Positions 17,621 to 41,884 of a stretch of DNA of 64,000 nt are shown piece after piece. Source of the DNA: Flavobacteriales bacterium. GTDB lineage: Bacteria > Bacteroidota > Bacteroidia > Flavobacteriales_F > PHOS-HE28. The first letter of the stretch is position 1. Each line of letters starts with the position of its first letter. The stretch covers positions 1,554,824 through 1,618,823 of the forward strand of contig JADJAA010000001.1 of assembly GCA_016704485.1 (NCBI GenBank), read 5' to 3'. A program made the position numbers and the translations under genes. Below the pieces are notes generated by a model that worked only from the letters and a program-made list of their open reading frames with translations, was not told the origin of the DNA and searched no databases.

Positions 17621-20600
17621 TCAAGCACTGCGCTCACCCGGCTGTGCGTTCCCTTGCACCCACTCCACTACCGAGATGATCTTATCCTGATCATTCTCAT
17701 TCGGGAATAGGCCGAAGATCCCTTCTTGGTGTAGGTCCGTGAACGTTGAACCCGGCTCTGCGAGCATGCGTTTGTCGATCACGCCGTTCACCGTGAGGTG
17801 CCGAATGATGGAATCGATGAAGTGGATCTGCGTAGCACTGAAGATGGAGCCGGACAAGAATTCGCCGAAGGCTGCTTTTGCTGCGCCTTCATCAAGGCCG
17901 ATGATGCTGCGAATGAAATAGCCTAGTGGCCGTTCCTCGCCAAGTTCCTTCATCAAAGCCTCCTTCGTGCCGCGTTCGTCTCCATCGAACAGGATGCGTT
18001 CCAGTTCCACTAGCTCAGCGGTCGTGATCGGCTCATTGGTGTATAGTTTGTGAATGGTAAGCTGGTGTTTGTGCGAGCGGATGAACTCCTCTACACGCAT
18101 CCGATAGCTACGCATGGTGTAGCTACCTGGCATGGAGATGATATCCTCACCCTCGCTCACCAACTCATCTCTCAGGTCCGAGTATACCACTTTGCGTTCC
18201 TCGCGCGGTATCAAGCGCACTAGATCGCGCAATTGTTTTCGTGTGAATTCCAAGGCTTCCAGACCGAACACAGCGGCTCGTTGTTGTTGATCATTTGCGA
18301 CATCAAGAACTGCTTTGATCGCTGGATACCGCTCCTGCACTACGGGAATGTTGGAGAGCCGGGCAAGCTGTGTGGCGGTTGAGGCCAACGTGCGGAACAG
18401 GCGATCTACTGACGGCGCCTCTTGGGCCACAGCAATTTCCAGATCGAGCATAAGTAGGTCAAATCGTTTGGCCAGCTCGTCCTTGTCCGGTAGTTCGATC
18501 AAGTGACCAACGGTCTCGAACAGATCACTGATCCCGCTTTTTGATAACGCATTCCATGCGGTACGTTCACGGTAGTGATCGAGCACACGTTGCGCAGGAC
18601 GAATGCGCACGGTGTGCCGCAATTCCCAAAGTGCCTGGACCCAACTATGCGCACTATTCAAAAGCTCAACGCGTAGTGCTTGATCTTTTGGTACCTGATG
18701 GGCTGGTTCACGCAGTTGTTCACTAAGTAGGATAGTTGCTTCAAAGATCCGTTGCGATAGGCTGGGGGAGCGCACAGGTTCAATGCCTTCCGGCCGCAGG
18801 TTGAAGAAGCTGTAGTTGCCACAGAGATCGAAGATCCTGAAGTTCTCCTTGTGCTGGCCGGGACCGAACAGATCCGGGCATAAGCGTGTGCCGCGGCCAA
18901 CCATTTGCCAGAACTTGGACTTGCTATAGACCGGTTTAAAGAACACCAAGTTCACGATCTCAGGAATATCAATACCCGTATCCAACATATCCACACTCAC
19001 GGCGATCTGTGGATACCGGTCCTTATCACTGAAATTATCTATGATGCTCTGGGAGTATTGCTCCTTACTGTGTACCACCGACATGAAATGCCCACCGTAC
19101 TGCGGGAACTGATCTTCAAAACGGTTCTGTATGGCCCGGGCATGGTCTATGTTCCTTGCAAAGACAACGGTCTTGCCCAGCTTCTCACCACCTTCCACTT
19201 TGATCCCGTTCTCCATCACATAGGCCAACACCTGATCGATGGTGTTCGAGTTGAAGAGCCAGTTATTGATCGCGGGCGCTCCGATCTCTTCGGGTATATT
19301 CCCTTGGTCGTCCCGGAAGGTCTCTTCGTAATGTGTCCTATCGCTCTCACTCAGGTCATCGTAGCGGATACCGCGTTGCAGAAAGCCGAAGTCCACTGCT
19401 TTGCCAATGGGCGGCACCAGAAAACGATCGGCTACGGCCTGCCCTAATTCATAGAACGATGTCGGGTTATGCTCTTCGCAATCGAACAAGGCATAGGTAT
19501 CCCGATCCCCTTGGTCGTGTGGTGTTGCAGTAAGGCCGACCAACAAGGAATCGAAATAGGTGAAAATAGCACCGTACCGATCGTACACTGAGCGATGCGC
19601 CTCATCCACAATGATCAGATCGAAGTGACCGACACCGAAGGTCTTCACATCATCACTCCGCACTTGGTCCACGCGGTTCATTACCGTGGGGTAGGTGCTG
19701 AAGACCACCCGTGCGCTTTCATCATAGCGCTGTTTGGTGAGATCCAATGTGGTAACATTCGGCAGGTTCTTCTCAAAGGCCCGTTTTGCCTGTGTGACCA
19801 AGGCATTGCGATCAGCGAGAAAGAGCACACGCTTCGCCCAATTCGCTTTCAGTAGAAGGTCCACTAACGCGGCAACGGTACGCGTCTTGCCAGCCCCAGT
19901 GGCCATTACGATCAATGCTTTTCGCTTAAGACCGCGCATGCCATCTTCATCCACCCAACTTTCTGCAACCCGCTTGATCGCTTGATGTTGGTAATAGCGT
20001 TCCACGATCTGCTCATCGATCGGCACATGCCGAATGTTCACACGACCGATACGCCGATCAACGACCCGTTGCAATTCGTCCCGCGTGTAAATGCCCTGTA
20101 CAGCGCGTGGACCATAAAAGGTGTCATCCCAGATCCACGTATCGAAACCGTTGCTATAGAATATCACCGGGCGCTGTCCGGTCATGCGTTCCAGGCAATC
20201 AGCGTAAAGGCTTGCTTGCACACGGCCTTGTTGGGCATCGTGGGTGGTGCGCTTGGCCTCTACTACGGCCAGCGGTTTACCATCTGCACCCCAGAGCACG
20301 TAATCTACCTTGCCGTTGCCGTTGGGATTGGTGCTCAATGGCATCCCTGTTACCGGGTATTCGATCACGTTGGATGCGGCAGGGTCCCAGCCTGCTTCGC
20401 GCAACAGTTCATCAATGAAGAGTAACCGTGTATCCGCCTCCGAATATTCAGAAGCAGGTATGGGTATGTTCTCATGGCGCTCCTTGCGCTCCTGGATCGC
20501 TGCCAGGCGTTCTGCCAATATCTGCTTTTCTCCTTCTAATTTCAACCGTTGCTCGCGCTCGGTCTCCATCGCTACACGTTGCGCTTCATAACGCTCCTGT

Positions 20601-21079
20601 AACTGTTGAAGCTCCGCGCTGTTCGGAACTTCCTTCACTTTCACTTGTACTATGAGTGCCTCCTCTTGGAATGTTCCTACCTCGATGTCGAATGCGCTGT
20701 ACGTACGACCCATCCATTTCAAGAACCGGAACAAGAGGCGCAATGAGGCTACGCTCTGGCTCTCCACCACCTTCTTATCATGCGCAGCGGCATTGCCGGT
20801 ACGCCGGATGTACTGCAGGTCGATGTAGATGGGTGGTGGTATCAGTACCCGGAAGGACCGTTCATCCATCAACGCGCTCAACTGGCTGTTGTAAGGGCGC
20901 TGTAGGTCACTGTCGTTATCATACAGCCAGTGCACGGTACGTTCCAACGCACGGCGGGCATACACGGCAGAGGCGATCGGTGCGGCCAAGGCATACCGCT
21001 CCGCGTCCATGGCCTCCTTCGCAATGGAGGGCCACTCTTCAACGAGGAAGCGGAAGTTGCTCGGGGTGCTCAACGACAT
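17621..21079 (-). CDS. hsdR: Type I restriction enzyme R subunit (EcoEI/COG4096-like, with EcoEI_R_C C-terminal domain)
   Basis: 1152 aa. The N-terminus is SNFRFLVEEWPSIAKEA. The PD-(D/E)XK nuclease motif is GKVDYVLWGADGKPLAVVEAKRT. The SF2 helicase motifs are VMATGAGKTRT and LIIVDEAHRS. A long C-terminal helical domain is present. Confidence 0.8.
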   Translation of the reverse strand: MSLSTPSNFRFLVEEWPSIAKEAMDAERYALAAPIASAVYARRALERTVHWLYDNDSDLQRPYNSQLSALMDERSFRVLIPPPIYIDLQYIRRTGNAAAHDKKVVESQSVASLRLLFRFLKWMGRTYSAFDIEVGTFQEEALIVQVKVKEVPNSAELQQLQERYEAQRVAMETEREQRLKLEGEKQILAERLAAIQERKERHENIPIPASEYSEADTRLLFIDELLREAGWDPAASNVIEYPVTGMPLSTNPNGNGKVDYVLWGADGKPLAVVEAKRTTHDAQQGRVQASLYADCLERMTGQRPVIFYSNGFDTWIWDDTFYGPRAVQGIYTRDELQRVVDRRIGRVNIRHVPIDEQIVERYYQHQAIKRVAESWVDEDGMRGLKRKALIVMATGAGKTRTVAALVDLLLKANWAKRVLFLADRNALVTQAKRAFEKNLPNVTTLDLTKQRYDESARVVFSTYPTVMNRVDQVRSDDVKTFGVGHFDLIIVDEAHRSVYDRYGAIFTYFDSLLVGLTATPHDQGDRDTYALFDCEEHNPTSFYELGQAVADRFLVPPIGKAVDFGFLQRGIRYDDLSESDRTHYEETFRDDQGNIPEEIGAPAINNWLFNSNTIDQVLAYVMENGIKVEGGEKLGKTVVFARNIDHARAIQNRFEDQFPQYGGHFMSVVHSKEQYSQSIIDNFSDKDRYPQIAVSVDMLDTGIDIPEIVNLVFFKPVYSKSKFWQMVGRGTRLCPDLFGPGQHKENFRIFDLCGNYSFFNLRPEGIEPVRSPSLSQRIFEATILLSEQLREPAHQVPKDQALRVELLNSAHSWVQALWELRHTVRIRPAQRVLDHYRERTAWNALSKSGISDLFETVGHLIELPDKDELAKRFDLLMLDLEIAVAQEAPSVDRLFRTLASTATQLARLSNIPVVQERYPAIKAVLDVANDQQQRAAVFGLEALEFTRKQLRDLVRLIPREERKVVYSDLRDELVSEGEDIISMPGSYTMRSYRMRVEEFIRSHKHQLTIHKLYTNEPITTAELVELERILFDGDERGTKEALMKELGEERPLGYFIRSIIGLDEGAAKAAFGEFLSGSIFSATQIHFIDSIIRHLTVNGVIDKRMLAEPGSTFTDLHQEGIFGLFPNENDQDKIISVVEWVQGNAQPGERSA

Positions 21080-23476: not shown

Positions 23477-24274
23477 CTATCCACTCCACTTCACGATATC
23501 CGCCACTACCGTCTTGTAGCTCAAGCCACGCAGCCGTTTCACCACCACGATGCGGGTATCTCCGTACTGCTCTGCGCGTTCGACCGACGAGTCAGTTGGT
23601 CTACTTTCCTTGATCCCCAGCCCCGTGCGAAAATGCGACCACCACGTATCGTTGGTGAGCACCACACAGAGTTTCGGCTGTAATTCCTCCAGTTCCATGC
23701 GCACCAGATCCACGCATTCGGGTCGTTGCAGGATGCGCTCGTCCACATCCGGATTGGCCACTTCGCCACGGTTCTGCGGTGCGATCTTGTAGAGGTTGGA
23801 CCATACCAGTTGACGGTTCCATTCCCACGCGTCCTCATTTGTGATGCCGTGCCGAACCTGCATCAGCTTGACCGTGGCCTGCCAGAAGAACGATGACCAA
23901 GCGCGGTAGTTCTTCTCCCGTTCGGTATACCAGGCTTGTTCTTCCGGGCTACACTTGTTCAAGGTAGTGTTCGTCCACAACACGTTCACCCAATCCAACG
24001 GGGAGTGGTCTTTGAAGGGTTCGTTGGAGTAGCGCTTGCTCTCTTCTATGCGGCCCCTCGGTACTGCCTTCGTGAAGTCCCACTCCGGGTGCCAACCACC
24101 CACGGCCTGGCCGTAGACCAGCACATCAACCGGTTCATTCGTTCGCGTACCGATGCTCGGATAGAAGTCTGTGAAGTGGGTGCGTTGCGGAAAGGTGCGC
24201 GCCAGTCGACGTTGAAAGGCTTCCAAGTGTTGCTGGTAGGCGGCGTTATAGGTTGGTGAGAGGGTGCGATACAT
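23477..24274 (-). CDS. Hypothetical protein (cassette-like gene flanked by direct repeats, between hsdS and the cyclase gene)
   Basis: ORF 23477..24451(-). The first 59 codons read through repeat copy 2 and look non-coding (Arg/Gly/Ser-rich). Probable start MYRTLSPTYNAAYQQHLEAF at 24274. No family recognised. Confidence 0.5.
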   Translation of the reverse strand: MYRTLSPTYNAAYQQHLEAFQRRLARTFPQRTHFTDFYPSIGTRTNEPVDVLVYGQAVGGWHPEWDFTKAVPRGRIEESKRYSNEPFKDHSPLDWVNVLWTNTTLNKCSPEEQAWYTEREKNYRAWSSFFWQATVKLMQVRHGITNEDAWEWNRQLVWSNLYKIAPQNRGEVANPDVDERILQRPECVDLVRMELEELQPKLCVVLTNDTWWSHFRTGLGIKESRPTDSSVERAEQYGDTRIVVVKRLRGLSYKTVVADIVKWSG

Positions 24275-24302: not shown

Positions 24303-25448
24303 TTAGTTCCCCAACTCCCCCCGGAACGCCCCCTGCAACAAACTCCCGAACAAGCCCTCGCTCTGGTGTAAGCTTGCTGCAATGCAGGTGCGCTGCTTTT
24401 GGATGTTATGGAGTAATGTTCCGAACCGTTCCTGCGCTTTGAGTGGAACAAGTGGAATACGCATTCTTCGGATCTCTTCTGTTGTGATATTCTTGAAGAT
24501 GGCTCCCACCGACTTATCGCTGACCCCTACGGCGAGCATATTCAGATAATGGTAAATGAACCTCAGGTCAAAGCCTTTGTCAAAGTCACGAAATCCTGCA
24601 AATCCATCGTGTATGCAACAGTCGACCATCAGGATCGCTGGCAGGCCTGGCTTCCCACTTACAGCCATCACCAAGTCACCACGTTTCATTGGACGACTGC
24701 GCTGTGAGCCTTCAATCGTGAGTGAATCGATCTGAGGTGTCACATACATCCCATCACGGGTCAAGTCTGCAACCATTAGGCGAGGCACGGGACCTCCAAA
24801 GTATCGCGCATCACCCTGTGGTCTTGGACTGCTCCCACGGACGACCTCACACAACGAACCCAAGTCTACAGTTTCCCACCCCCTCTCATTCCGCACCGGA
24901 TCCCCGAACAGCTCCAAGAACAGGCTCTTGGCAAGTTGGTCGTAAACCGCCAAGGTTCGCCGGTCGTTGGCCACCAGCGCCTGCGCCTTGTCCAAGATCG
25001 CCGCGATGCGACGCTGCGTGGGGAGGGCGGGCGGAGCAAAAGGTAAGCTGCGGATATCTTCTATCTTGAAGCCTTTCACCGTCGCTCCGTTTCCACGCGA
25101 AATGAAGTAATTCTCTTTCGCAAATAGAAAGTAATAGAGATAGGTCTGGTCAACCTTGCCATTTATAACAAGCGCCTTCAGATCCTGATTGAATGCCATC
25201 GGCACGTTCGTGATCGACATGCGCCCAAGAGCCATGCGTGTTGCAATCAATAACGTTCCGGCTGGAACTATCTGTGTCGCACAATTATCTACACCGCGTT
25301 CAGTGATCGACTCGTACGTCTCCGAAATATGCTTTGATGTAAGATCCTTCACCGTAGCCCATGGGACATCACCTTCCCAATAGCCCTCGATATCGCGATT
25401 AGGAGTACCACCACCAAGTATCTGGATATAATTGCCCAGCACGCTCAT
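24303..25448 (-). CDS. hsdS: Type I restriction-modification specificity subunit (two TRDs)
   Basis: 381 aa. Two target-recognition-domain halves are each followed by the conserved HsdS helix LPTQRRIAAILDKAQAL. Its start overlaps the hsdM stop by 4 nt (25445..25448). Confidence 0.8.
   Translation of the reverse strand: MSVLGNYIQILGGGTPNRDIEGYWEGDVPWATVKDLTSKHISETYESITERGVDNCATQIVPAGTLLIATRMALGRMSITNVPMAFNQDLKALVINGKVDQTYLYYFLFAKENYFISRGNGATVKGFKIEDIRSLPFAPPALPTQRRIAAILDKAQALVANDRRTLAVYDQLAKSLFLELFGDPVRNERGWETVDLGSLCEVVRGSSPRPQGDARYFGGPVPRLMVADLTRDGMYVTPQIDSLTIEGSQRSRPMKRGDLVMAVSGKPGLPAILMVDCCIHDGFAGFRDFDKGFDLRFIYHYLNMLAVGVSDKSVGAIFKNITTEEIRRMRIPLVPLKAQERFGTLLHNIQKQRTCIAASLHQSEGLFGSLLQGAFRGELGN
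24305..24395. repeat. Direct repeat copy 2 (partner of 23383..23470)
   Basis: See copy 1. It lies immediately downstream of the hsdS stop (24303) and upstream of the proposed start at 24274. Confidence 0.6.
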
Positions 25449-27004
25449 TTCAACAACGCCTCCAATTCGTCCAACAATTTCACACGGTCGGCGGCCAATT
25501 GGCGCAGGCCGGGTTCTCCCTTTTTGCCGTTGATCAGCTCGGCGGGCGTGGCATACTTCACTTGCTCGTACACCACCTCCTTGTAGCGGTTTATGCTGAG
25601 GTCCCAGTTGTTGGCCTTCAAGTCCGCAAAGGGCACCAGAAAGCTCTGGTCGGTTCGTGCACGTTTGCTTTCACCTTTCGCACCGAAGCGCGCTAGGATG
25701 TCGGCGATGTTGCTTTTCTCGTGCAGCGTTTTCGCTCCCTTGGTGGGCTCGGTGTATTGGAGTTCAAGCTGTTCTTCGGTGAGTTGCGGTGTGCGCTTAT
25801 CATCCAACGAGAAACCGTCGGCACGCATGTCGTAGAACCACACGTTGTCGGTACCGCCGCTATCGGTCTTGGTAAAGATCAGCACCGCGGTGCTCACCCC
25901 TGCATAGGGTTTGAATACGCCGCCGGGCATGCTGATCACCGCTTGCAATTGCTGGCGTTCGATCAGTTCCTGCCGCAGTTGCTTGTGCGCCTTGCTGCTG
26001 CCGAAGAGCACACCATCGGGCACGATCACAGCTGCGCGGCCACCTGTGCGGAGCATGCGCAGGATCAGACCTAGGAAGAGCAACTCGGTCTTCTTGCTGC
26101 TCACTGTGCGCAAGATCGCAGGGTCCACAGCGTCGTGGTCCAAGCTGCCTTTGAACGGCGGGTTCGCTAACACCAGCGAGAAGCGCTCACTGATGTGGCC
26201 TTGCTCTTTGCTAAGCGCATCCTGCCCGATCAGTTGCGGGTGCTCAATGCCGTGCAACATCATGTTCATGGCACCAATGCGCAACATGCTGGAGTCGAAC
26301 TCGACCCCGGTGAAGAGGTTGGTGTTGTAATGCTCGCGGAACTTCTTCTCGTGGAAGCTGTCCGGGTGCGTGCGCCGTATCTCTTCGCTTGCCGCCACCA
26401 AGAAACCGCACGTGCCGGCACTGGGATCGCAGATGGTATCGGTGGGTTGCGGAACCATCAGTTGCACCATCATGCGGATGATGTGGCGCGGTGTGCGGAA
26501 CTGGCCGTTGCGTCCTGCCGTAGCGATCTTGCCCAGCAGGTATTCATAGAGGTCGCCCTTGGTGTCGCGGTCGGCCATGTCCAGCGCGGCGATCATTTGC
26601 ACGGCGCGGTCCAGCAACCGCGCGGAGGGGATCATGAACGTAGCACCCTTCATGTGCTCACTGAACACGCTGCCCTCGCGCCCCATCTGCTTCATGAAAT
26701 CGAAGACCGTGAGGTTATCGTTCTTCGCATCAGGCCGCGTAAAGAGCGCGAACAATGTATCCGGGTCCTTGTCCTTGAAACTGCTCCACCGCAACGCCTT
26801 GTACTTGGGCGGGTAAATGGGATCCTTGATGGGCCCACCGAGCTTGGCGCTCTGCTTCTCTTTGGTGGTCTGGATCTCATCCATCCGGCGCAAAAAGAGC
26901 AAGTAGGTGATCTGTTCGATAACCGTGAGCGGATTGGCGATGCCGCCAGTCCAGAAGGCCTCCCAGAGGCGGTCGACGTCGGAGCGGAGTGTTCCGTTTA
27001 TCAT
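25445..27004 (-). CDS. hsdM: Type I restriction-modification N6-adenine DNA methyltransferase subunit
   Basis: 519 aa. It has the HsdM N-terminal domain, GQFRTPRHIIRMMVQL, motif I DPSAGTCGFL, motif IV LANPPFKG, and the C-terminus AAVIVPDGVLFGSS...AVISMPGGVF. Confidence 0.85.
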   Translation of the reverse strand: MINGTLRSDVDRLWEAFWTGGIANPLTVIEQITYLLFLRRMDEIQTTKEKQSAKLGGPIKDPIYPPKYKALRWSSFKDKDPDTLFALFTRPDAKNDNLTVFDFMKQMGREGSVFSEHMKGATFMIPSARLLDRAVQMIAALDMADRDTKGDLYEYLLGKIATAGRNGQFRTPRHIIRMMVQLMVPQPTDTICDPSAGTCGFLVAASEEIRRTHPDSFHEKKFREHYNTNLFTGVEFDSSMLRIGAMNMMLHGIEHPQLIGQDALSKEQGHISERFSLVLANPPFKGSLDHDAVDPAILRTVSSKKTELLFLGLILRMLRTGGRAAVIVPDGVLFGSSKAHKQLRQELIERQQLQAVISMPGGVFKPYAGVSTAVLIFTKTDSGGTDNVWFYDMRADGFSLDDKRTPQLTEEQLELQYTEPTKGAKTLHEKSNIADILARFGAKGESKRARTDQSFLVPFADLKANNWDLSINRYKEVVYEQVKYATPAELINGKKGEPGLRQLAADRVKLLDELEALLK

Positions 27005-27017
27005 GGGGTGAAGATGG

Positions 27018-28226
27018 TCAATGTTTGGTGATGGTGGTAAATTCCCATTTAGACTGTCCGTTCAGTTCGACTTGTTTGACTTGGCCGGAAACGAGGTCGC
27101 CATCCACAAGGCTGTGTAGTTTTATCAGATCCTTGTTGATGTAGGCATCGCCAGCATGGGCGTAGGTGTTATCGTTGCGTTTCTTGACCACGACGCGGCC
27201 CAGTTCTTTGGTATCACCGTCGAGTAGGGGAACTCCGTCGCTGCCTACCGCTTCCTCGTGTAGCCAGGTTCGGTTCGCCTTGGGGTCTGGATACTTTGCT
27301 GCGAACTTCTTGAACCAGACCAACACGTCCATGAGCTGGAACACGATGGTGCTCAAGAGGTAAGGCGTTACACCATGCTCGTGTAGTGCTTCGAGATTGT
27401 CCAAGCTGTAATTGGAATCCTCAGCGGTCTCGTCCGCATGCGAGCTTTCGCTGGTTACCCGCAGAATATTGTCCAGTGCATCGGCAACGATCCGGGGCAT
27501 CATCGGGCGGTCACACTTCAAGGCCACCGTGGCCGAAGAACGGCTCGGATAAAGCACGCGCTCGCCCCGCAGGAACAGTGCTGACAAGCGTTGGTTGACC
27601 CTCGGCTTTACAAGGACATCGGGTAGTAACCCGTGCCGATGCGCGGCATAGAAGAAGTGCTCCACTACCTGACGCAAAGGATTCATGAATAAGCGATCAC
27701 TACCGGACTTGTCCCCGCGATCCACAAAGCGCAATGCGTCCATGAACATAGGGTCGGCAACGGCATCCAAATAAGGAACTTGGAGCACTGCGAACACATC
27801 GGCATACCTATCACGAAGCGCTTGCTCGTTGCTTCGATCAACAAGGCTCTGTAGTTCCGCGTATAGGTCCTTCTCGTTCCCTTTCAAGTACCGCCGCTCA
27901 TCACGACGGTTCTTTGTTGCACCTTCGTCAAAGCCGGTATTGATCACATACGGAATATGAATGTTCGCTCCTTTCCATTGGTCCAGATCCCTGCGGGCTT
28001 CATGCAGGTGGTCGATGTCCTCGGTGGGTGAATGTTCATCCACCTGCCCTCTGGCATCGAGGATCAAGGCTTTGAAACGCTTTTCTCGGATCGGTTCCTT
28101 AGCCTCGGCCCAGGTCTTGAACCAAGTCACTTCGAAACCGTGCGCGACCGCCTTAGCAATTTGGGCTTTGGCGTATGCTTCATCGTCATCTACTAAGGCG
28201 ATCGGAACCAGGTCAAACAGTGTCAT
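27018..28226 (-). CDS. Response-regulator receiver (REC) domain protein with an uncharacterised ~280-aa C-terminal (effector?) domain
   Basis: ORF 27018..28289(-). Start at 28226 gives MTLFDLVPIALVDDDEAYAKAQIAKAVAHGFEVTWFKTWAEAKEPIREKRFKALILDARGQ, with an acidic pocket DDD and a phospho-acceptor-like D in ILDARG. The remainder has no recognisable family. Its start overlaps the stop of the upstream kinase gene by 14 nt. Confidence 0.65.
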   Translation of the reverse strand: MTLFDLVPIALVDDDEAYAKAQIAKAVAHGFEVTWFKTWAEAKEPIREKRFKALILDARGQVDEHSPTEDIDHLHEARRDLDQWKGANIHIPYVINTGFDEGATKNRRDERRYLKGNEKDLYAELQSLVDRSNEQALRDRYADVFAVLQVPYLDAVADPMFMDALRFVDRGDKSGSDRLFMNPLRQVVEHFFYAAHRHGLLPDVLVKPRVNQRLSALFLRGERVLYPSRSSATVALKCDRPMMPRIVADALDNILRVTSESSHADETAEDSNYSLDNLEALHEHGVTPYLLSTIVFQLMDVLVWFKKFAAKYPDPKANRTWLHEEAVGSDGVPLLDGDTKELGRVVVKKRNDNTYAHAGDAYINKDLIKLHSLVDGDLVSGQVKQVELNGQSKWEFTTITKH

Positions 28227-30909
28227 GCGAAATGGGAAGGTCAATGGTGAAGTGGACAAACATTTGAGTGGATACAGCTTCCCGGTCAAATGGTATCCAA
28301 TGATTCTCGTCTATACGTTGATCGCGTTCAAAACTCGATCGGTACTTGTCATCGCTCACTGGCAGGTTACCCGACACGAACTTTCCGCCGTGGTTGGCAA
28401 TGATCCGATCGATCAGATAGCCGCCTATGCCATTGCCCTTTTTCATGTCCAGACGCTTGCCAAAGGTGATGAAGTGCTCATGGGTAAAACCTTCCGGAAA
28501 GGGTTTGCCGTTGTTCTCGATGGTGATAACCAATCGCGTTCGTTGAGGTTCAATACGCGTTGATACCCTCACCCGTACGACCAATTGTTCCTGATCCGAT
28601 CGAAGGCCGTGTTTGGCCATATTGATGAACAAGTTCTGGATGACAAGTGCGAACTGTTGTTGATCGACATGTGCGATCACTCCTTCAGTGGTTTCTAGTC
28701 CAGCTTCACATTCGAAAATGACCATAAGCGCTTTCACCTGGTCGGCAAGTCCGCGCAATTCCGTTCGGAACAGTCGACGAAGGTCGATGGGCACTGGTCT
28801 TAGACTCTCCTTATCTGATCGGATCACCGCATTGATCAATTGAAAGAGACCGCGCATGCGATCCAATCCACTATTCATTGTATCTAGGGCGGTGGTGATC
28901 GTAGACTTTTCAACTGGGCCCAAACTGTTGAGTACTGCATGGATCTCGGCCATGGGTTGCTCCAGAAGCGCCACCACCGGGCGGAAGCTGTGCTCCACTG
29001 CACCAAGGATCTGCCACTCATCAGTGGAGAGGCCATGCTGTTTTTCCTGCCTAGCGATCTCCTCCTTCTTCGCCAATAGAATGGATTCCTTCCGTTCGCG
29101 AACAATGCGCAGTTGATCCTTGAGTTCGGGTAAGCGAACCCGAATTCTCAGAACGTCTGCTTTGGCTATGAAAGCGATCGTACTTCCTTGGTGGTATGCG
29201 TCGAGCTGATCTTGGATCGTGGGCGTTCTTAGTTCTGTTGCGAGGTATTCGGTATTAGCACGAGCCGCATCCACACGGAACATGAATACATTGCTTCCCA
29301 CGGCGATCGGTCCATCTACCGGGTCGAATAAGGTCGGCTTCAACTTTCCGCCCACCCGTGCAAGTAGCAGTGCTGGCACATCCAATCTCTTCAGTCCCTT
29401 CTTGACAGAACCGGTTTCATGTTGCCCATCACGCGCCGTGCGCCTCATGTCGAGGACATCCGTTGAAAGCTCGGAGACCTGGAAGAGCGGCAGACCGGCG
29501 AGGTCGCCCATGGAGAGGATATCGTCCGAAAGCACGGTGCCGAGTTCAACCACGTCCACACCATCCGCTTCGGCCACGATATGGGCTTGTTGAAGCAGGC
29601 TGGCAAACCGACTCATGCTCCAAGACACATGCTCGTCGGAACGGATGTCAGAAACCTTCACGTCCAAAACACCTTGTAAGGTATAAGTGCTATCCAACGC
29701 CTGCAGCACGCTGCTAACATCGAGTGTTATTTCGGATCGCGTCTTGTATGTGACATGCAAACCCGCATCCACGAATCGGACAGGCGCATTCGTTGGCCGT
29801 GATCCATTCAAAACAATGATCGAGGTCTTTATCCCTGAGTAGGGTGTGAAGGATCCTGCTGGCAACGAGATCACTGCTTCGAGCAACCCTAGGTCAAGAA
29901 TCTGTTTGCGTAGATGCGCTCTGTTGATGCCGAACAACATACTCTCGGGCACAAGGATCACCGCCTTCCCCTCGGGTGCAAGCCGCTTGAGGATCTGGTT
30001 GATCGCTATCTCATAGGGTTCTATCGCGCGTAGCCTTCCTTCCTCTTTCACTCGACCACCGAAAGGTGGTGCACTAATGCAATGCGTATACTTCTTGTTG
30101 GAAGCACCGGGTGCTGATGGTTCGTTCAAGGCGGCGTTCAGGTCTGCCCCGAGAATACGTGCTTGCAGCGTATTGAAGAAGAATGCGAATTGGTTGAAGA
30201 ATACCGCGTCGAGCTTTACAGAATGTGGCGCACGCGCTGCGAGCACTGCTGGCAATACGCTCGCATCCGCAGCTGGGTCGAATACCTCTTCCACGTCTCC
30301 GAGCAGCCGCGCCATAAGCATTGCAACGGACCATGGCGTACAGAACTGGCCCATGTGACTATCGCGCAAGAGGAGGCTACGCATTTCTTCCACATACTCG
30401 ATCGGTTCCAAACCCGCTGATGCCATGAGAAAAAGCTCAGTTTGTACTGGGCTTGTTGCCAGTGCGCCGCCATTTTTAAGAAGATACGAATGCTGCTCCC
30501 CAAAGTCCTTAAACTCCTCTGCCAATTCATTCAAGGTGGACCATAATCCTTCTCCTCTTTGAGCGATCGTAGGCAACACTCCTGCTGGGCGCACGGCCAA
30601 GGCATAAATGAGTGCCAGCTCCAAGCCAACGGTCTGCGCGAAGGGCATGGATCGTAGCGCATTGCGCAATTCCCATGCGTGGGCCTGAAAAAAACGGACC
30701 CGGTTCAACATACGTTCTGGATCCAACTGTAAACTACCGTCATCGGATATACTAACACGCCCACCAGACAACTCCACCTCAGCAAGCAAGCTCGATGGCT
30801 CAACGTCCTTCTGGCTCAATAAGACCTTGACGATATTACAGACACCCTCCAAAGTATCCGAGCCGTTCTTCAGGCGAAGGGCACATATTATGGCGTCTAT
30901 CAGTTTCAT
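28213..30909 (-). CDS. Fusion protein: HsdM-like N6-adenine MTase domain (degenerate catalytic motifs) + HsdS-like target-recognition domain + HisKA/HATPase_c histidine kinase
   Basis: 898 aa. It has an HsdM N-terminal helical domain. Motif X is GQFCTPWSVAMLMARLL. Motif I is degenerate, VFDPAADASVLP (no GxGxF). Motif IV is CISAPPFGG, APPF instead of NPPF. The HsdM C-terminal region is AVILVPESMLFGINRAHLRKQILDLGLLEAVISLPAGSFTPYSGIKTSIIVL. The HsdS-like conserved helix is VRLPELKDQLRIVRERKESI. The H-box is AVEHSFRPVVALL. The GHKL ATPase region is LFINMAKHG (N-box), ...IENNGKPFPEGF...GNGIGGYLIDRIIANHGGK (G1/G2). Confidence 0.75.
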   Translation of the reverse strand: MKLIDAIICALRLKNGSDTLEGVCNIVKVLLSQKDVEPSSLLAEVELSGGRVSISDDGSLQLDPERMLNRVRFFQAHAWELRNALRSMPFAQTVGLELALIYALAVRPAGVLPTIAQRGEGLWSTLNELAEEFKDFGEQHSYLLKNGGALATSPVQTELFLMASAGLEPIEYVEEMRSLLLRDSHMGQFCTPWSVAMLMARLLGDVEEVFDPAADASVLPAVLAARAPHSVKLDAVFFNQFAFFFNTLQARILGADLNAALNEPSAPGASNKKYTHCISAPPFGGRVKEEGRLRAIEPYEIAINQILKRLAPEGKAVILVPESMLFGINRAHLRKQILDLGLLEAVISLPAGSFTPYSGIKTSIIVLNGSRPTNAPVRFVDAGLHVTYKTRSEITLDVSSVLQALDSTYTLQGVLDVKVSDIRSDEHVSWSMSRFASLLQQAHIVAEADGVDVVELGTVLSDDILSMGDLAGLPLFQVSELSTDVLDMRRTARDGQHETGSVKKGLKRLDVPALLLARVGGKLKPTLFDPVDGPIAVGSNVFMFRVDAARANTEYLATELRTPTIQDQLDAYHQGSTIAFIAKADVLRIRVRLPELKDQLRIVRERKESILLAKKEEIARQEKQHGLSTDEWQILGAVEHSFRPVVALLEQPMAEIHAVLNSLGPVEKSTITTALDTMNSGLDRMRGLFQLINAVIRSDKESLRPVPIDLRRLFRTELRGLADQVKALMVIFECEAGLETTEGVIAHVDQQQFALVIQNLFINMAKHGLRSDQEQLVVRVRVSTRIEPQRTRLVITIENNGKPFPEGFTHEHFITFGKRLDMKKGNGIGGYLIDRIIANHGGKFVSGNLPVSDDKYRSSFERDQRIDENHWIPFDREAVSTQMFVHFTIDLPISHDTV

Positions 30910-30971
30910 GCAACGGGGGTCAAAGTAAGCGGTGGAGGGTTATGGTGTAGATGTGTTTGCAGGTTATGATC

Positions 30972-32234
30972 TCAAGCGACTTTCTCCAGTCGGTTTGTCG
31001 GCAGAAGTTGGGCAGCCATACGATCCATGACCTCCCATTCCGGACGTGTGTACGAGTTGCTCTCCGTGACCACCGGGATCCTGAATTCGCCCATGGCATC
31101 CTCGCGCATAGCCCATTGATCCTTCTGGTCGTAGAGCTTTGTTCCGGGCAAAAGCATCAGCGGCCAAGCCTTAACGTCCCTGCAGCCTTTGGATAAGAGG
31201 TGGTCGATACTACGCTGGAAACTTTCCAAGGTCTGTCCGGGCAACCCGTAGATCAAACTCACTTCGAAAGGAATCTCGCGCTCCACAAGCTGTTCAATAG
31301 CAGCATCGACAAGATCCATCCGATTGGCGCGGTCAATTTTCTTGGACACTGCATGGTCCGTGGTCTGCAACCCGAACTCCAAGTGGAAGTTGGCTTGCGT
31401 ACAAAGGTCCAGGAATGCATTAACCTGTTGGCCTCGGATATTCTCAAAGCGCGATTGCAGGGTGAAGGTGGAGCGCGTACGGAGTTGAACGATCTCTTGC
31501 ATTATATCCAGGCACTCCTTCCCAGCGTTGAAGATGGGGTCGAGTATGTTCACGCGTTGCACACGATGTTCAGTGAGAAATGCTAACTCTTTAAAGACTT
31601 TATCCAGTGGGTGCTTATGCACGCGGTGAGTGGCGAGGTCGCGGTGTGCGCAAAATGAACACCGGTAGGGGCAGCCGCGTTTGGTCTCCAACCGTACCAT
31701 ACCGGCTCCCATTGGTACAGGCAATTCGCCAGTGAGATACGGTGAGGCCAGTTGTGTGAAGTCCACTGGTACGTTCACGAACACGGGTTCGTCGGCATCG
31801 AGATGGTCCGTCAATTCGGCAAAGGCTTGTTCGGCTTGTCCGGAGATGAAGACCTGGCAATCCGGATACCGACGCAGCAATTCTGCTCGGTTCCCGTAGG
31901 TGACTTGATACCCTCCGAGGACCACCTTGCCAAGGAACCCAAGACGACGAAGCAATGCGATGATGCCATTGGTGAGGTACTCGTTCCAGATGTAAGCCGA
32001 GAGCGCGATGGCGTTAAAGCGGCTCACATCAAGCGCCGCGAGTTGCACTTCGAATTGCTCGGGTGTGGCCGTGCCGCCGTGTTCGAGCATGTTGATCGAG
32101 AGGTGTTCCACGTGCATCTGTCCACGCAGCCGTTCATTACTCCGTTGGTGTGCCAAGAGAGATGCGATCGCCAAGGGCTTGGTGATCTCACCGTGCCGGA
32201 TCAGGTCGAAGGATATGATGAGCGTGTTCGTCAT
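30972..32234 (-). CDS. B12-binding domain radical SAM protein
   Basis: ORF 30972..32282(-). There is an N-terminal cobalamin-binding-like Rossmann region. The radical SAM cluster motif is RGCPYRCSFCAH (CxxxCxxC). It sits 62 bp upstream of the MTase-kinase gene, which is co-oriented. Confidence 0.75.
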   Translation of the reverse strand: MTNTLIISFDLIRHGEITKPLAIASLLAHQRSNERLRGQMHVEHLSINMLEHGGTATPEQFEVQLAALDVSRFNAIALSAYIWNEYLTNGIIALLRRLGFLGKVVLGGYQVTYGNRAELLRRYPDCQVFISGQAEQAFAELTDHLDADEPVFVNVPVDFTQLASPYLTGELPVPMGAGMVRLETKRGCPYRCSFCAHRDLATHRVHKHPLDKVFKELAFLTEHRVQRVNILDPIFNAGKECLDIMQEIVQLRTRSTFTLQSRFENIRGQQVNAFLDLCTQANFHLEFGLQTTDHAVSKKIDRANRMDLVDAAIEQLVEREIPFEVSLIYGLPGQTLESFQRSIDHLLSKGCRDVKAWPLMLLPGTKLYDQKDQWAMREDAMGEFRIPVVTESNSYTRPEWEVMDRMAAQLLPTNRLEKVA

Positions 32235-32343
32235 TGGTCCTCGCCACCAAGGGTCTATATGGTTGGATAATCGCTCAACCAACGAACTTCCCTATGGCAA
32301 CGGACCAAAAGTCCCGGTCACCTGTGCAGTCTATCTGCACAGT

Positions 32344-33354
32344 TCATTTCGCGTAGTTCTTCTTCATTTCCATCACCCGCAAAAGCAGCGCTTGGCGTAG
32401 TTCTTCCGGCGCAATAACCTGTAGCCCTTCTCCATAAGATAACAACAAGGCTTGTAGCTCGTAGTTCAGCTTCACTTCTAAACGAATAGTCGCGCCGCCG
32501 TCTTTTCTCTTCACTACTTTCTGCGAACCGTGTATAGGCTTTGACTCCAAATAAGGCCAAAGTCTATCCGTGACTTGGATCTTGACAACAACAGCTTCTT
32601 GATCCGCAGGTACACTTACACCAACAACATCCTCAAAATACTCCGTGAAATCCACCTCATCGTTCGGTATGTATTTCACCTTACTGGGTACAATATCCCG
32701 GATCCGGTCCAAGGCCATATTGACAATACGCCCCTCTTCCTCAAGACCAAAAACAAACCAACGGTTGTTATACTGTTTCAAGTAATACGGATGGAGCAAC
32801 ACAATGCTAGGCGCATTTTGCTTGAAGCCTTGGTAAGATATTTCCAAGGCTTGCTCATTGATGATCGAATGAAATAATGTGGTAATGTGCTCGGCACCTT
32901 TCAAATACGGGTTCTGCTCAAACTCGATGACCTGAGCAGCCCCTTGTTTCAGCCCGAAACCAGCTTCCAACCGAGCAACTAATTCATCTACCCATTCAAA
33001 CTGCGGCATGCCCTTAAATCGGCTCAGCGTTAAGAGCGCCTCCTTCAATTGTTCCGCTTCGCTCTCGTTCAGCGGTCGCTTGTTGATAGAGAATTCAAGG
33101 TCACTGTACCGGTAAAAAGTACGCTTTCCGTCTTTGTGTTTCTCCAGCGGGATAGCCCATCCTTGTTCGCTCTCCATGTACTTGATGTCCTCGAAAACTT
33201 GGCGGCGGCTGATGCTTGCACCTGCTCCGGTGAACTCCTCCAACGCCATGTTGCAAGCTTCCATCAGGTCTTCGATGAAATACTCGCGCCCACGGTTCGC
33301 AAAGCAACGGTCCATTGTCTGATAGCGAATAAGGGCATTCTTATTTACGGGCAT
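32344..33354 (-). CDS. WYL-domain transcriptional regulator (N-terminal wHTH + WYL + C-terminal WCX-like)
   Basis: 336 aa. The WYL signature is LLHPYYLKQYNNRWFVFGL, with an N-terminal HTH-like region. It has BrxR/CapW-like architecture. It is the first gene of the co-oriented block 33354->24303. Confidence 0.75.
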   Translation of the reverse strand: MPVNKNALIRYQTMDRCFANRGREYFIEDLMEACNMALEEFTGAGASISRRQVFEDIKYMESEQGWAIPLEKHKDGKRTFYRYSDLEFSINKRPLNESEAEQLKEALLTLSRFKGMPQFEWVDELVARLEAGFGLKQGAAQVIEFEQNPYLKGAEHITTLFHSIINEQALEISYQGFKQNAPSIVLLHPYYLKQYNNRWFVFGLEEEGRIVNMALDRIRDIVPSKVKYIPNDEVDFTEYFEDVVGVSVPADQEAVVVKIQVTDRLWPYLESKPIHGSQKVVKRKDGGATIRLEVKLNYELQALLLSYGEGLQVIAPEELRQALLLRVMEMKKNYAK

Positions 33355-33487: not shown

Positions 33488-33900
33488 CGCTGCCAGCTGG
33501 GTGGTAACCTGCACCAAGCTTGATGGTACCACACACCAAGCTTAGTGGTACCCTGTGCCAAGCTTAGTGGTACCTTGCACTAAGCTTGATGGTACCCTGC
33601 ACTAAGCTTAGTGGTACCCTGCACTAAGCTTAGTGGTACTCTGCACTAAGCTTAATGGTACCCTGCACCCAGTTGGGTGGTACCCTCCACCCAGCAGGGT
33701 GGTACCCTGCACCCAGTTGGGTGGTACCCTGCACTAAGCTTAGTGGTACCCTGCACTAAGCTTAGTGGTACTCTGCACTAAGCTTAATGGTACCCTGCAC
33801 CCAGTTGGGTGGTACCCTGCACCCAGTTGGGTGGTACCCTGCACCCAGTTGGGTGGTACCCCGCACTAAACTTAATGGTACCCGACACCAAGCTCAATAG
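33488..33900. repeat. Tandem array of ~19 copies of a 22-bp unit GGTACCCTGCACTAAGCTTAGT (variant units GGTACCCTGCACCCAGTTGGGT)
   Basis: Read directly from the sequence. Each unit contains the palindrome GGTACC plus either the 10-bp palindrome CTAAGCTTAG or the near-palindrome CCCAGTTGGG. A ~90-bp higher-order block (A-A-A-B) is itself duplicated. There are no unique spacers. It is non-coding because the unit length is not a multiple of 3. Confidence 0.9.
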
Positions 33901-33984
33901 TGCATTCCATTGATCTTGAGGGAGTTCACCTGAACCAGCATTGCGCTTGTGCCTCGGGAACTTGAGGAAGTAAAAGGTGAAATG

Positions 33985-34202
33985 GTCCGCTATCTATACC
34001 ATACTACTATAGGGCACATTGAACCTTAGTCTGGACTTCCGCCTTCGGAACTGCATTCGCTGCCAGATGATCATTGGGGTGCAATTATCCCAAACCTATA
34101 CCATATTACTATAGGGGGCATAAGCCTCCATCTCCGGCTCGTGAACTTTGGAGGTAAAGATGGTGTGATTTGACCTACTACCTATACCATATTACTATAT
34201 GG
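33985..34202. repeat. Three dispersed copies (~100 bp spacing) of a 20-nt near-palindromic motif CCTATACCATAYTACTATAGGG
   Basis: Copies are at ~33985 (ctataccatactactataggg), ~34089 (cctataccatattactataggg) and ~34178 (cctataccatattactatatgg). They lie between the two tandem arrays. Confidence 0.7.
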
Positions 34203-34287
34203 TGCTTTGCACCGTGCGCCTCGTGGTGCACACTTGTGGTTCAGAACTGCTTCATGTAGGCCTGGTGCAAGAGGCTGTATTTGTTCC

Positions 34288-34758
34288 ATTGGTACATGGC
34301 CTTGTCCCGTAAGTACATGTACTTGTGCCTTTGGTACATGTACTTGTCCCGTGAGTACATGTACTTGTCCCGTAAGTGCATGTACTTGTCCCGTGAGTAC
34401 ATGTACTTGTCCCGTGAGTACATGTACTTGTCCCGTAAGTACATGTACTTGTCCCGTAAGTACATGTACTTGTGCCGTTGGTACATGTACTTGTCCCGTA
34501 AGTACATGTACTTGTGCCGTTGGTACATGTACTTGTGCCGTTGGTACATGTACTTGTGCCGTGAGTACATGTACTTGTGCCGTGAGTACATGTACTTGTC
34601 CCGTAAGTACATGTACTTGTGCCGTTGGTACATGTACTTGTCCCGTAAGTACATGTACTTGTCCCGTAAGTACATGTACTTGTCCCGTAAGTACATGTAC
34701 TTGTCCCGTAAGTACATGTACTTGTGCCGTGAGTATGTGTACCTGTACCATGTGTAAC
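34288..34758. repeat. Tandem array of ~22 copies of a 21-bp unit TACATGTACTTGTCCCGTAAG (variants GTGCCGTTGG / CCGTGAG)
   Basis: Read directly from the sequence. Each unit contains the perfect 10-bp palindrome GTACATGTAC. Because 21 bp equals 7 codons, all frames are open, which explains four overlapping artefactual ORFs in the track (34182..34788). Confidence 0.9.
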
Positions 34759-35042
34759 GATACTTCAAGTTACAGTACACTTACTTGATACAGAGGTGCT
34801 TATGCCATTGCGTGGGGTATGCCTGCTTGTAACACGGGGACTGATAACCCACTCAGCGTCAGGCGTAAAGAGTGATCCGAACGTTGCCCGTGCTGCATAA
34901 CCCATCCTCGAGCGGCCGCGTGCGGGCTACAGTAAATGAAAAGAACCCCGGCCAGTTGTGCTAGGATTCTTCCGTTCGGGGATGGTGTATGAGTGGCAGG
35001 GTCGTCTGCTATGCGGCAGACTGACCCTGAGCGGGTTTAAAA

Positions 35043-36426: not shown

Positions 36427-36434
36427 TGAAGAGC

Positions 36435-41864: not shown

Positions 41865-41884
41865 ATACTTTTCAGTTCAATTAT

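What the first reader, a model, noticed from the sequence alone, without database searches (positions are those of the whole stretch)
24303..33354. Nine-kb co-oriented block: WYL regulator, B12-radical SAM, MTase-HK, REC-effector, hsdM, hsdS
All six genes lie on the minus strand with gaps of 110, 62, -14, 13 and -4 bp. This is consistent with one transcription unit, or a regulator followed by an operon. WYL regulators (BrxR/CapW type) are known to gate defense systems. A B12-binding radical SAM enzyme sitting directly upstream of a DNA-recognition module suggests an unusual nucleic-acid modification, for example radical C-methylation, coupled to Type I restriction.
Basis: inference. Interest (0 to 1): 0.7.

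Follow-up and report, generated by a model that had tools for sequence, protein, structure and literature searches.

The report
Restriction system wired to sensor kinase
A Flavobacteriales defence island carries a Type I restriction system joined in one conserved operon to a signalling pair: a histidine kinase whose sensor is a dead copy of the restriction methylase, and a partner protein that probably cuts RNA.

Summary
Six minus-strand genes sit at the stated coordinates with the stated spacing, and the order is conserved in at least 8 independent loci.

- The 'MTase-HK' is an HsdM-like plus HsdS-like fusion with degenerate catalytic motifs (DPAADAS; S[A/I/V/K]PPF, never N/D), joined to an intact histidine kinase.
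- The 'REC-effector' is an intact receiver, an HEPN-like helical domain and an S1/cold-shock OB domain. I read it as a phosphorylation-switched RNase.
- An invariant 18-nt palindrome core plus a TTTG box lies just after the WYL gene in six loci. This fits a WYL operator and promoter for the downstream operon.
- The true HsdR (17621-21079) lies outside the reported block.
- The B12-type radical SAM gene (PADLOC candidate PDC-M51A) is optional. It is absent from L012, from Myroides and Fulvitalea plasmids and from L017, and its relatives occur alone.

Best reading: a WYL-gated, Type I R-M-linked two-component abortive-infection module. It is analogous in logic to PrrC/EcoprrI, Detocs and Ambrosia but is a member of none. 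The trigger and the rSAM chemistry remain unknown. I rate it a new variant of a known kind, rare and experimentally tractable in Myroides.

The parts
32344..33354 (-). WYL-WCX transcription regulator (BrxR/CapW-like architecture), 336 aa
   Evidence: Pfam WYL 3.3e-10 and WCX 1.7e-11. Orthologues at 56-68% identity head the cluster in L001, L008, L012, L013 and L004, and at 41% in the Myroides plasmid.
32322..32342 (.). 21-bp perfect palindrome CTGTGCAG-ATAGA-CTGCACAG: candidate WYL operator
   Evidence: It occurs once in the window, against 0 expected. The 18-nt core is invariant in six loci whose flanks average 63% column identity. A degenerate copy is present in Myroides.
32306..32313 (-). 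GACTTTTG, a near match to the Bacteroidota -7 promoter element TAnnTTTG; its TTTG is invariant across loci
   Evidence: Alignment A5. The consensus itself is from established knowledge of Bacteroidota promoters and was not tested here.
30972..32234 (-). B12-type (class B-like) radical SAM enzyme, 420 aa; optional accessory
   Evidence: Radical_SAM 3.3e-13, B12-binding 6.7e-4. PADLOC PDC-M51A 6.6e-117. Closest solved relatives are CysS (1.3e-19) and TokK. CPYRCSFC cluster motif is present. 71-85% identical between loci.
28213..30909 (-). Sensor histidine kinase with an HsdM-like pseudo-methyltransferase plus one HsdS-like TRD as input domain, 898 aa
   Evidence: Profile against PDB: 176-462 matches HsdM, 541-616 matches HsdS, 634-862 matches HK853-type kinase. 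Motif I is DPAADAS and motif IV is S[A/I/V/K]PPF. H640, N763, G801, G827 and G829 are invariant.
27018..28226 (-). Response regulator: REC + HEPN-like helical domain + S1/CSD OB domain, 402 aa
25445..27004 (-). HsdM, active-looking Type I methyltransferase (NPPF, DPSAGTCGF), 519 aa
   Evidence: N6_Mtase 1.6e-57, HsdM_N 3.8e-12. PADLOC MTase_I 1.7e-168. 78-87% identical between loci.
24303..25448 (-). HsdS with two TRDs, 381 aa
   Evidence: Methylase_S 2.7e-31 in two stretches. 31-39% identical between loci, as expected for variable specificity.
23477..24274 (-). Conserved accessory gene of unknown function, 265 aa
   Evidence: 59% identical to L001 17687-18511. Only a sub-threshold UDG hit, E 0.098.
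17621..21079 (-). HsdR (EcoAI/EcoEI type) with N-terminal DUF4145 (a HEPN family); the restriction subunit of this system
   Evidence: ResIII, HSDR_N, EcoEI_R_C and DUF4145. PADLOC REase_I 2.7e-160. 82% identical to the HsdR that closes the same cluster in L012. DUF4145 = HEPN per PMC3710099.

Best explanation
The block is a WYL-controlled operon that couples a complete Type I restriction-modification system (HsdM, HsdS, with HsdR about 3 kb further on) to a dedicated two-component module. The sensor kinase has replaced the usual ligand-binding input with a catalytically dead HsdM-like methyltransferase fused to one HsdS-like target-recognition domain. As a kinase dimer it would imitate the M2S1 DNA-clamp of a Type I enzyme. 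I infer that this pseudo-enzyme perceives a DNA-level cue. The cue could be foreign or unmodified DNA, or, as I think somewhat more likely, a DNA-mimic anti-restriction protein or another disturbance of restriction. The kinase would then autophosphorylate on H640 and pass the phosphate to D57 of the response regulator. The regulator's HEPN-like domain, helped by its S1/cold-shock RNA-binding domain, would then cleave RNA and stop growth. That gives a second line of defence behind restriction. The WYL protein would keep the operon repressed through the conserved palindrome until a stress or infection signal arrives. The B12-type radical SAM enzyme is an optional add-on of unknown substrate. Shown here: the domain architectures, the motif states, the conserved synteny and the conserved cis-element. 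Inferred: defence function, phosphotransfer, RNase activity, the trigger and the WYL-operator pairing.
Confidence: 0.5

Rival explanations
1. The two-component pair regulates the restriction system rather than acting as a killing module. The pseudo-methylase kinase would report the methylation state of the chromosome or DNA damage. The REC-helical-CSD protein would act as an RNA-binding regulator (antiterminator or translational controller) that tunes hsdM/S/R expression, giving establishment control or restriction alleviation.
For: The regulator gene ends 13 nt before hsdM. CSD/S1 domains bind RNA without cutting it. HEPN domains that lack the canonical motif can be non-catalytic RNA binders (PMC3710099). 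The Rx4-6H arginine is not conserved. Ambrosia is modelled as two-component control of R-M-like genes.
Against: There is no HTH or ANTAR output. An invariant S-H plus R/E are retained down to about 20% identity, which suggests catalysis. The pair occurs without Type I genes in L017 and in convergent orientation in Fulvitalea, which does not fit cis-acting antitermination. The short REC variants lack the CSD altogether.
Confidence: 0.2
2. One reading: the B12 radical SAM enzyme installs a non-canonical (for example C-methyl) mark on DNA at sites chosen by the adjacent DNA-recognition proteins. The pseudo-methylase kinase and/or the Type I enzyme would read that mark to tell self from non-self.
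For: The rSAM is class B methylase-like (CysS, TokK, KedN5). It sits directly upstream of the kinase in 7 of 8 metagenome/MAG loci. It is very strongly conserved, 71-85% between loci with 105 invariant columns down to 46% identity. It belongs to a defence-candidate family. A pocket that keeps PPF but loses N/D could be a reader of a modified flipped base (inference).
Against: The system exists without the rSAM in L012, Myroides, Fulvitalea and L017. rSAM relatives stand alone with no DNA-recognition partner. The enzyme has no DNA-binding domain beyond the B12 and rSAM core. To my knowledge no class B rSAM is known to act on DNA. No homologues are found in viral contigs, where hypermodification genes are common. 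The extreme conservation fits a small universal substrate at least as well.
Confidence: 0.12
3. There is no functional unit. The genes are independent defence genes packed into a hotspot: a lone rSAM defence gene, a stand-alone two-component toxin module and an ordinary Type I R-M. They travel together only because they share an island.
For: Each module is also found separately (rSAM alone; pair without R-M). The genes after hsdS are a mosaic cargo. The island is dense with unrelated systems.
Against: The same order persists over 38-87% protein divergence and with two HsdM families. Start/stop overlaps occur within the block. A single conserved operator-promoter lies upstream. The pair associates with Type I systems again in Cytophagales in a different arrangement.
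Confidence: 0.1

Closest known systems
PrrC anticodon nuclease embedded in the EcoprrI Type Ic R-M locus
   Same: A latent HEPN-type RNase is encoded inside a Type I hsd locus and acts as a second line when restriction is subverted (PMC3710099).
   Different: PrrC is an ABC-ATPase-HEPN protein held in check by direct binding to the R-M complex. Here the coupling would be a His-Asp phosphorelay from a kinase whose sensor is an HsdM/HsdS paralogue. There is no ABC ATPase, and the HEPN-like domain has a variant motif.
Ambrosia (AbrR-AbrA-AbrB-AbrC-AbrD), bioRxiv 10.1101/2025.09.30.679545
   Same: A single gene cluster combines R-M-like enzymes, a histidine kinase, a response regulator and a transcription repressor, and it is validated as anti-phage.
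   Different: Ambrosia has a separate active-type N6 methylase, an unfused kinase, a REC-wHTH transcription factor, an XRE repressor and a Type IV HNH nuclease. It is found in Gammaproteobacteria. Here the methylase-like domain is fused to the kinase and is degenerate, the output is HEPN-like/CSD, the repressor is WYL, and the partner is a classical Type I system in Bacteroidota.
Detocs (DtcA/DtcB/DtcC), bioRxiv 10.1101/2023.01.24.525353
   Same: A defensive two-component system in which a kinase activates a REC-effector protein rather than a transcription factor (details from my knowledge of the paper).
   Different: There is no REC-only buffer protein. The effector is not a PNP ATP nucleosidase. 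The sensor is not TPR-based. PADLOC finds no Detocs model on any gene here.
BrxR/CapW-type WYL regulators
   Same: WYL+WCX architecture at the head of a defence operon, with a palindromic candidate operator.
   Different: The candidate operator lies downstream of the regulator gene, in front of the regulated operon. Binding and the inducing signal are untested. Pfam did not detect the N-terminal HTH in the window protein.
PADLOC candidate system PDC-M51
   Same: The rSAM matches model PDC-M51A over its full length at 6.6e-117.
   Different: No other gene of the block matches a PDC-M51 model, and no partner was identified next to lone rSAM relatives. PDC-M51 is an untested candidate, and no paper in the library mentions it.
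Class B cobalamin-dependent radical SAM methyltransferases (CysS, TokK, KedN5)
   Same: An N-terminal Rossmann-type domain plus a CxxxCxxC rSAM core. These are the best sequence matches.
   Different: The protein is much shorter (420 aa against 645-681 aa) and lacks their C-terminal domains. It scores far below every NCBIfam cut-off. It sits in a defence context rather than a natural-product context.

Membership tests
Type I restriction-modification system | HsdM with intact AdoMet motif I and catalytic motif IV (NPPF/Y) | tested here: met
   DPSAGTCGF and LANPPF in 25445-27004. N6_Mtase 1.6e-57, HsdM_N 3.8e-12.
Type I restriction-modification system | HsdS with two target-recognition domains | tested here: met
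   Methylase_S in two stretches, 2.7e-31.
Type I restriction-modification system | HsdR with nuclease and SF2 translocase | tested here: met
   17621-21079 carries HSDR_N, ResIII, Helicase_C and EcoEI_R_C. It is 82% identical to the HsdR of cluster L012. It lies outside the reported block.
Two-component system (His-Asp phosphorelay) | Kinase with H box, N box and G boxes | tested here: met
   H640, N763, H767, N799, G801, G827 and G829 are invariant in 16 sequences. HK853-type match at 634-852.
Two-component system (His-Asp phosphorelay) | Receiver with acidic pocket, phospho-acceptor Asp, Thr/Ser and Lys | tested here: met
   D13, D14, D15, D57, T97 and K115 are invariant in alignment A2; across the divergent variants D13, D14, D57 and K115 remain invariant. 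Response_reg hits 13 of 19 members.
Two-component system (His-Asp phosphorelay) | Phosphotransfer between the pair | not testable with these tools
   Only adjacency or overlap of the genes and co-variation of subtypes are available.
N6-adenine DNA methyltransferase (for the kinase's input domain) | Glycine-rich AdoMet loop (motif I) and (N/D/S)PP(Y/F/W) motif IV | tested here: not met
   The motifs are DPAADAS and S[A/I/V/K]PPF in all 16 close homologues. In wider relatives they are SLLPI and SVLPF, but NPPL is kept in Myroides.
HEPN superfamily | Four-helix up-down bundle of about 100-120 residues | tested here: inconclusive
HEPN superfamily | Rx4-6H RNase motif | tested here: inconclusive
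   The window protein has R256-x6-H263. H263 is invariant, but the R is N/S/H/T/K in other members. R185 and E189 are conserved elsewhere in the domain. H-only families are known (PMC3710099).
HEPN superfamily | Metal-independent endoribonuclease activity | not testable with these tools
   -
Class B (cobalamin-dependent) radical SAM methyltransferase | CxxxCxxC cluster motif in a rSAM core | tested here: met
   CPYRCSFC. Radical_SAM 3.3e-13.
Class B (cobalamin-dependent) radical SAM methyltransferase | N-terminal cobalamin-binding Rossmann domain | tested here: inconclusive
   The B12-binding hit scores 19.9 bits against a cut-off of 32.1. The CysS alignment spans residues 58-402. Some homologues carry the precomputed PF02310 hit.
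Class B (cobalamin-dependent) radical SAM methyltransferase | Methyl transfer to carbon or phosphorus; identity of the substrate | not testable with these tools
   -
BrxR/CapW-type WYL regulator | HTH-WYL-WCX architecture | tested here: inconclusive
   WYL and WCX were found and the HTH was not. An HTH_11 hit was found only in the L017 homologue.
BrxR/CapW-type WYL regulator | Palindromic operator controlling the defence operon | tested here: inconclusive
   A conserved palindrome plus TTTG lies in front of the operon. Binding was not tested.
Detocs | Three genes: kinase, REC-only buffer, REC-PNP (or other) effector | tested here: not met
   There is no REC-only gene, and no PNP or Detocs PADLOC hit.
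Ambrosia | XRE repressor, separate N6 methylase, kinase, REC-wHTH, Type IV HNH nuclease | tested here: not met
   The domain content differs on all five genes.
PADLOC PDC-M51 | PDC-M51A plus its partner gene(s) | tested here: inconclusive
   The A gene is matched. No partner model hit was found here or beside lone homologues.

The most novel reading that the evidence does not exclude
A Bacteroidota family of histidine kinases has recruited a dead Type I methyltransferase-specificity module as its sensor. It would be the first two-component system that directly reads DNA, or that acts as a decoy for DNA-mimic anti-restriction proteins. Its output would be a phosphorylation-gated HEPN-type RNase. 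In one sub-clade a B12 radical SAM enzyme adds a chemistry (C-methylation of a nucleic acid or nucleotide) not yet seen in immunity.
Probability: 0.3. Interest if true: 0.85.

Novelty: new variant of a known kind. Interest (0 to 1): 0.7.

Why it matters
How bacteria notice that restriction has failed is understood for only a few systems, such as PrrC and PARIS. If this reading holds, there is a generic solution. A copy of the restriction enzyme's own DNA-recognition machinery is disabled and bolted onto a histidine kinase, so that a standard phosphorelay switches on an RNA-targeting effector. That would extend two-component signalling to an intracellular, DNA-level input. It would also give a clean modular system for study, with defined catalytic residues (H640, D57, H263), and would add a WYL operator that can be tested by EMSA.

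The system occurs on a 43-kb mobilizable plasmid of cultured, clinically isolated Myroides odoratimimus, so it is testable now. The accompanying B12 radical SAM family (PDC-M51A) is strikingly conserved, is restricted to defence-type neighbourhoods and has no known substrate. It is a separate open lead.

Tried and rejected
- **Megablast of the block.** E. coli genomes gave only a 114-nt hsdM match and plasmids gave nothing. This is not an enterobacterial or known-plasmid sequence.
- **Sigma-70 promoter and intrinsic terminator scan.** Promoter-like sites were fewer than in shuffles and terminator-like sites about as many. It is in any case inapplicable, because the host is Flavobacteriales. 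No exact TAnnTTTG occurs on the minus strand in 23-34 kb, only 7/8 matches. Transcription units cannot be settled computationally.
- **The 1610-aa DEAD/UvrD helicase (10664-15496) as the counterpart of the ~1820-aa helicase that ends the cluster in other loci.** Rejected: no BLAST similarity. The window uses HsdR instead.
- **The 21-22-bp tandem arrays upstream of the WYL gene as part of the system.** Not conserved in other loci, apart from a loose 21-bp array in L012.
- **The kinase's TRD sharing specificity with the cognate HsdS.** Rejected: no similarity.
- **PDC-M51 partner genes next to lone rSAM homologues.** None found.
- **Genome and metagenome scans for the kinase.** They returned only 1 and 2 loci.
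- **rSAM in viral contigs.** None found.
- **Fold searches.** Foldseek PDB recovered only the OB domain. The afdb50 library was unavailable.
- **Rfam.** Only a spurious miRNA hit inside a tandem array.
- **Literature.** The searches found no description of this architecture.


Full report
**1. What is in the sequence**

The six genes exist as described. All are on the minus strand.

| Gene | Coordinates | Note |
|---|---|---|
| WYL | 32344-33354 | |
| radical SAM | 30972-32234 | first ATG of the ORF |
| 'MTase-HK' | 28213-30909 | |
| 'REC-effector' | 27018-28226 | |
| hsdM | 25445-27004 | |
| hsdS | 24303-25448 | |

The spacings are 109, 62, -14, 13 and -4 nt. Pfam, PADLOC and NCBIfam confirm the following:
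- WYL+WCX on the regulator.
- Radical_SAM with a sub-threshold B12-binding hit.
- N6_Mtase+HATPase_c on the fusion protein.
- A canonical HsdM (NPPF, DPSAGTCGF).
- A two-TRD HsdS.

The window comes from a Flavobacteriales MAG. Proteins in the same 90%-identity clusters are named that way in NCBI, so E. coli-type promoter and terminator scans do not apply.

The neighbourhood is a dense defence island. It holds Septu PtuA/PtuB (35458-38822), a GmrSD-like gene (15720-17534), a DpdF/GajB-like 1610-aa helicase (10664-15496) and an EcoAI/EcoEI-type HsdR with an N-terminal DUF4145 domain (17621-21079).

**2. The arrangement is a conserved unit, not chance**

The fusion kinase family is rare. About 20 clusters were found among 5.8 billion proteins, and one hit among 185,579 species genomes. 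Wherever a homologue sits on a long contig, the same order recurs:

WYL - [DUF2130] - [rSAM] - fusion kinase - REC protein - HsdM - HsdS - one to four variable small genes - then either a DUF4145-HsdR or an ~1820-aa helicase.

Identities to the window proteins differ sharply by gene.

| Protein | Identity to the window protein |
|---|---|
| HsdM | 78-87% |
| HsdR (L012) | 82% |
| rSAM | 71-85% |
| WYL | 56-68% |
| Kinase | 38-65% |
| REC protein | 22-80% |
| HsdS | 31-39% |

The HsdR at 17621-21079 therefore belongs to the system. So does the unannotated gene at 23477-24274, which is 59% identical to a gene in the Flavobacteriales locus L001. The opposite-strand cyclase genes between them look like an insertion into the usual cargo slot, whose content is a mosaic between loci.

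L004 keeps rSAM, kinase and REC at 65-80% identity but pairs them with a different, 813-aa HsdM family. The link is therefore to Type I systems in general, not to one lineage.

**3. The 'MTase-HK' is a sensor kinase with a dead Type I enzyme as input**

A profile of 16 homologues matches three kinds of solved structure:
- HsdM structures over residues 176-462.
- HsdS structures over residues 541-616.
- HK853-type kinases over residues 634-862.

In all 16 sequences the AdoMet loop reads DP[A/S]AD[A/S], with no glycines. Motif IV reads S/C-[A/I/V/K]-PP-F/L, never N or D. The kinase H box (H640), N box (N763) and G boxes (G801, G827, G829) are invariant.

The TRD-like segment is the best-conserved part of the protein, and the kinase core falls into three divergent subtypes. 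This is the reverse of what real specificity subunits do. The segment also has no similarity to the HsdS next door. The sensor therefore recognises something constant rather than a strain-specific DNA word.

Histidine kinases are dimers (established knowledge). Two pseudo-M plus half-S units on a coiled coil would resemble the M2S1 clamp. That resemblance is inference.

**4. The 'REC-effector'**

The receiver residues D13, D14, D15, D57, T97 and K115 are invariant.

Pfam finds S1CSD-TOTE-2 and Rho_RNA_bind in 13 of 19 members.

The window protein has R256-x6-H263. Across the family H263 (with S262), R185 and E189 are invariant or nearly so, but R256 is not. HEPN families that keep the H and use another basic residue are documented (PMC3710099).

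Foldseek recovered only the OB fold. I therefore treat 'HEPN-like, probably an RNase' as a moderately supported inference.

Shorter variants (305-326 aa) lack the CSD.

**5. A conserved cis-element**

Directly after the WYL stop codon lies CTGTGCAG-ATAGA-CTGCACAG (32322-32342). It is unique in the window. Its 18-nt core, loop included, is identical in six loci whose flanks are only 63% conserved. An invariant TTTG follows 12 nt after the palindrome. A degenerate copy at the same spacing is present on the Myroides plasmid.

Invariance without compensatory change points to sequence-specific protein binding rather than a mere hairpin. GACTTTTG resembles the Bacteroidota -7 element. The best fit is a WYL operator overlapping the promoter of the downstream operon.

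**6. The wider family and the place of the rSAM**

A full HMMER scan with the HEPN-CSD part found 255 clusters at 50% identity. Most are about 400 aa, and the match usually begins about 125 residues in, leaving room for an N-terminal domain the size of a receiver. Three further contexts were examined.

| Locus | Arrangement |
|---|---|
| L017 | Divergent WYL, a 750-aa pseudo-methylase-TRD-kinase (26% identity, E 6e-35) and the REC protein; no Type I genes within 15 kb |
| Myroides odoratimimus plasmid pFM-G13 | WYL - kinase (motif IV NPPL retained) - REC - HsdM - HsdS - hypothetical - PLD - HsdR |
| Fulvitalea axinellae pFA12 | The pair, convergent with a Type I system |

None of these carries the rSAM, and neither does L012.

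Conversely, rSAM relatives at 45-57% identity are lone genes. Most sit in defence-type neighbourhoods: BREX-like in L006, Type I/TIR in L007 and AbiEii/Schlafen in L016. One sits in an ordinary context, L014.

The rSAM matches PADLOC candidate PDC-M51A. It is most like CysS and TokK, is very strongly conserved and is absent from viral contigs. It is thus a defence-associated, optional accessory of unknown substrate. Nothing here links it to DNA.

**7. Mechanism proposed**

The proposed sequence is as follows. Each step is inferred from the parts and from precedent.
1. WYL represses the operon.
2. The pseudo-Type I sensor perceives a DNA-level cue. Candidates are a DNA-mimic anti-restriction protein or another disturbance of restriction, or foreign DNA itself.
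3. H640 passes the phosphate to D57 of the REC protein.
4. The HEPN-like/CSD output is activated and attacks RNA.
5. Growth stops, giving a second line of defence behind Type I restriction.

This matches the logic of PrrC/EcoprrI and of the defensive two-component systems Ambrosia and Detocs. The locus fails the membership tests for all three. Rivals are set out separately: a regulatory rather than lethal output, an rSAM-made DNA mark, and mere co-location.

**8. Novelty and verdict**

No paper in the searchable library describes this architecture. PADLOC v2 has no model for the REC protein or for the kinase as such.

I class it as a new variant of a known kind: R-M-linked second-line defence and defensive two-component systems. 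Interest is 0.7.

Noticed in passing
window 33501-33894: Tandem array of 17.9 copies of a 22-bp unit just upstream of the WYL gene. The units contain palindromes (CACTAAGCTTAGTG or CACCCA..TGGGTG) and a GGTACC site, with a 132-bp higher-order period. It is not found in other loci. Function unknown.
   Followed up: partly
window 34292-34746: Second tandem array: 21.7 copies of a 21-bp unit with the palindrome AGTACATGTACT, 91% matches. It produces spurious stop-free ORFs on both strands (34182-34788) with meaningless Pfam hits. A loose 21-bp x 16 array lies upstream of the WYL gene in L012 at 2683-3025.
   Followed up: partly
window 33977-34213: Three copies of a ~49-nt repeat with the core CTATACCATA(T/C)TACTATAG, spaced 86-102 bp apart, between the two arrays.
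   Followed up: no
window 21302-23375 (+ strand): Opposite-strand insertion between hsdS and hsdR. It holds a 253-aa ORF with no hits and a membrane-anchored class III nucleotide cyclase (Guanylate_cyc 7e-56; weak S_4TM and HNOBA; PADLOC PycC 1.2e-15). No cNMP-binding effector was recognised, so it may be a Pycsar-like system.
   Followed up: partly
window 35458-38822: Septu system: PtuB-like HNH protein (1.2e-68) and a 795-aa PtuA whose N-terminus also matches PtuB models (1.6e-157).
   Followed up: no
window 10664-17534: A 1610-aa DEAD (DpdF-like, 5e-98) plus UvrD (GajB-like) fusion helicase, and a GmrSD_N / HEC-05-like 604-aa protein. Both lie downstream of hsdR on the same strand. They are not homologous to the ~1820-aa helicase of related loci.
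   Followed up: partly
window 17621-21079, residues 26-106 of HsdR: HsdR carries an N-terminal DUF4145 domain, a HEPN family (PMC3710099). The locus may therefore hold two HEPN-type modules.
   Followed up: partly
L003 4762-6006; L008 8740-9987; L012 5443-6687; L013 1588-2835: A 414-aa DUF2130 protein with a weak N-terminal zinc-ribbon hit and a weak LmuB-like (SMC-type) PADLOC hit. It is 66-73% identical between loci and sits between WYL and rSAM in most relatives, 13-14 nt before the rSAM. It is missing from the window.
   Followed up: partly
L001 16853-17680; L012 13279-14109: A 275-aa protein whose sequence, by eye, starts like a signal peptide and ends like an outer-membrane beta-barrel. 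It is conserved at 63% directly after hsdS in two loci, which is odd cargo for a defence operon.
   Followed up: no
NCBI Flavobacteriales MAG proteins in the same 90%-identity cluster as the window kinase: In several Flavobacteriales MAGs of this cluster the kinase gene is annotated in two pieces (for example 337+575 aa and 487+411 aa). This could be assembly frameshifts or real pseudogenisation. L008 also has it split, 624+220 aa.
   Followed up: no
window 38824-43362: Same-strand run upstream of Septu: a 604-aa Amidohydro_2 protein, a 365-aa protein with no hits, a papain-like Peptidase_C1 and an SH3_3-CHAP protein.
   Followed up: no
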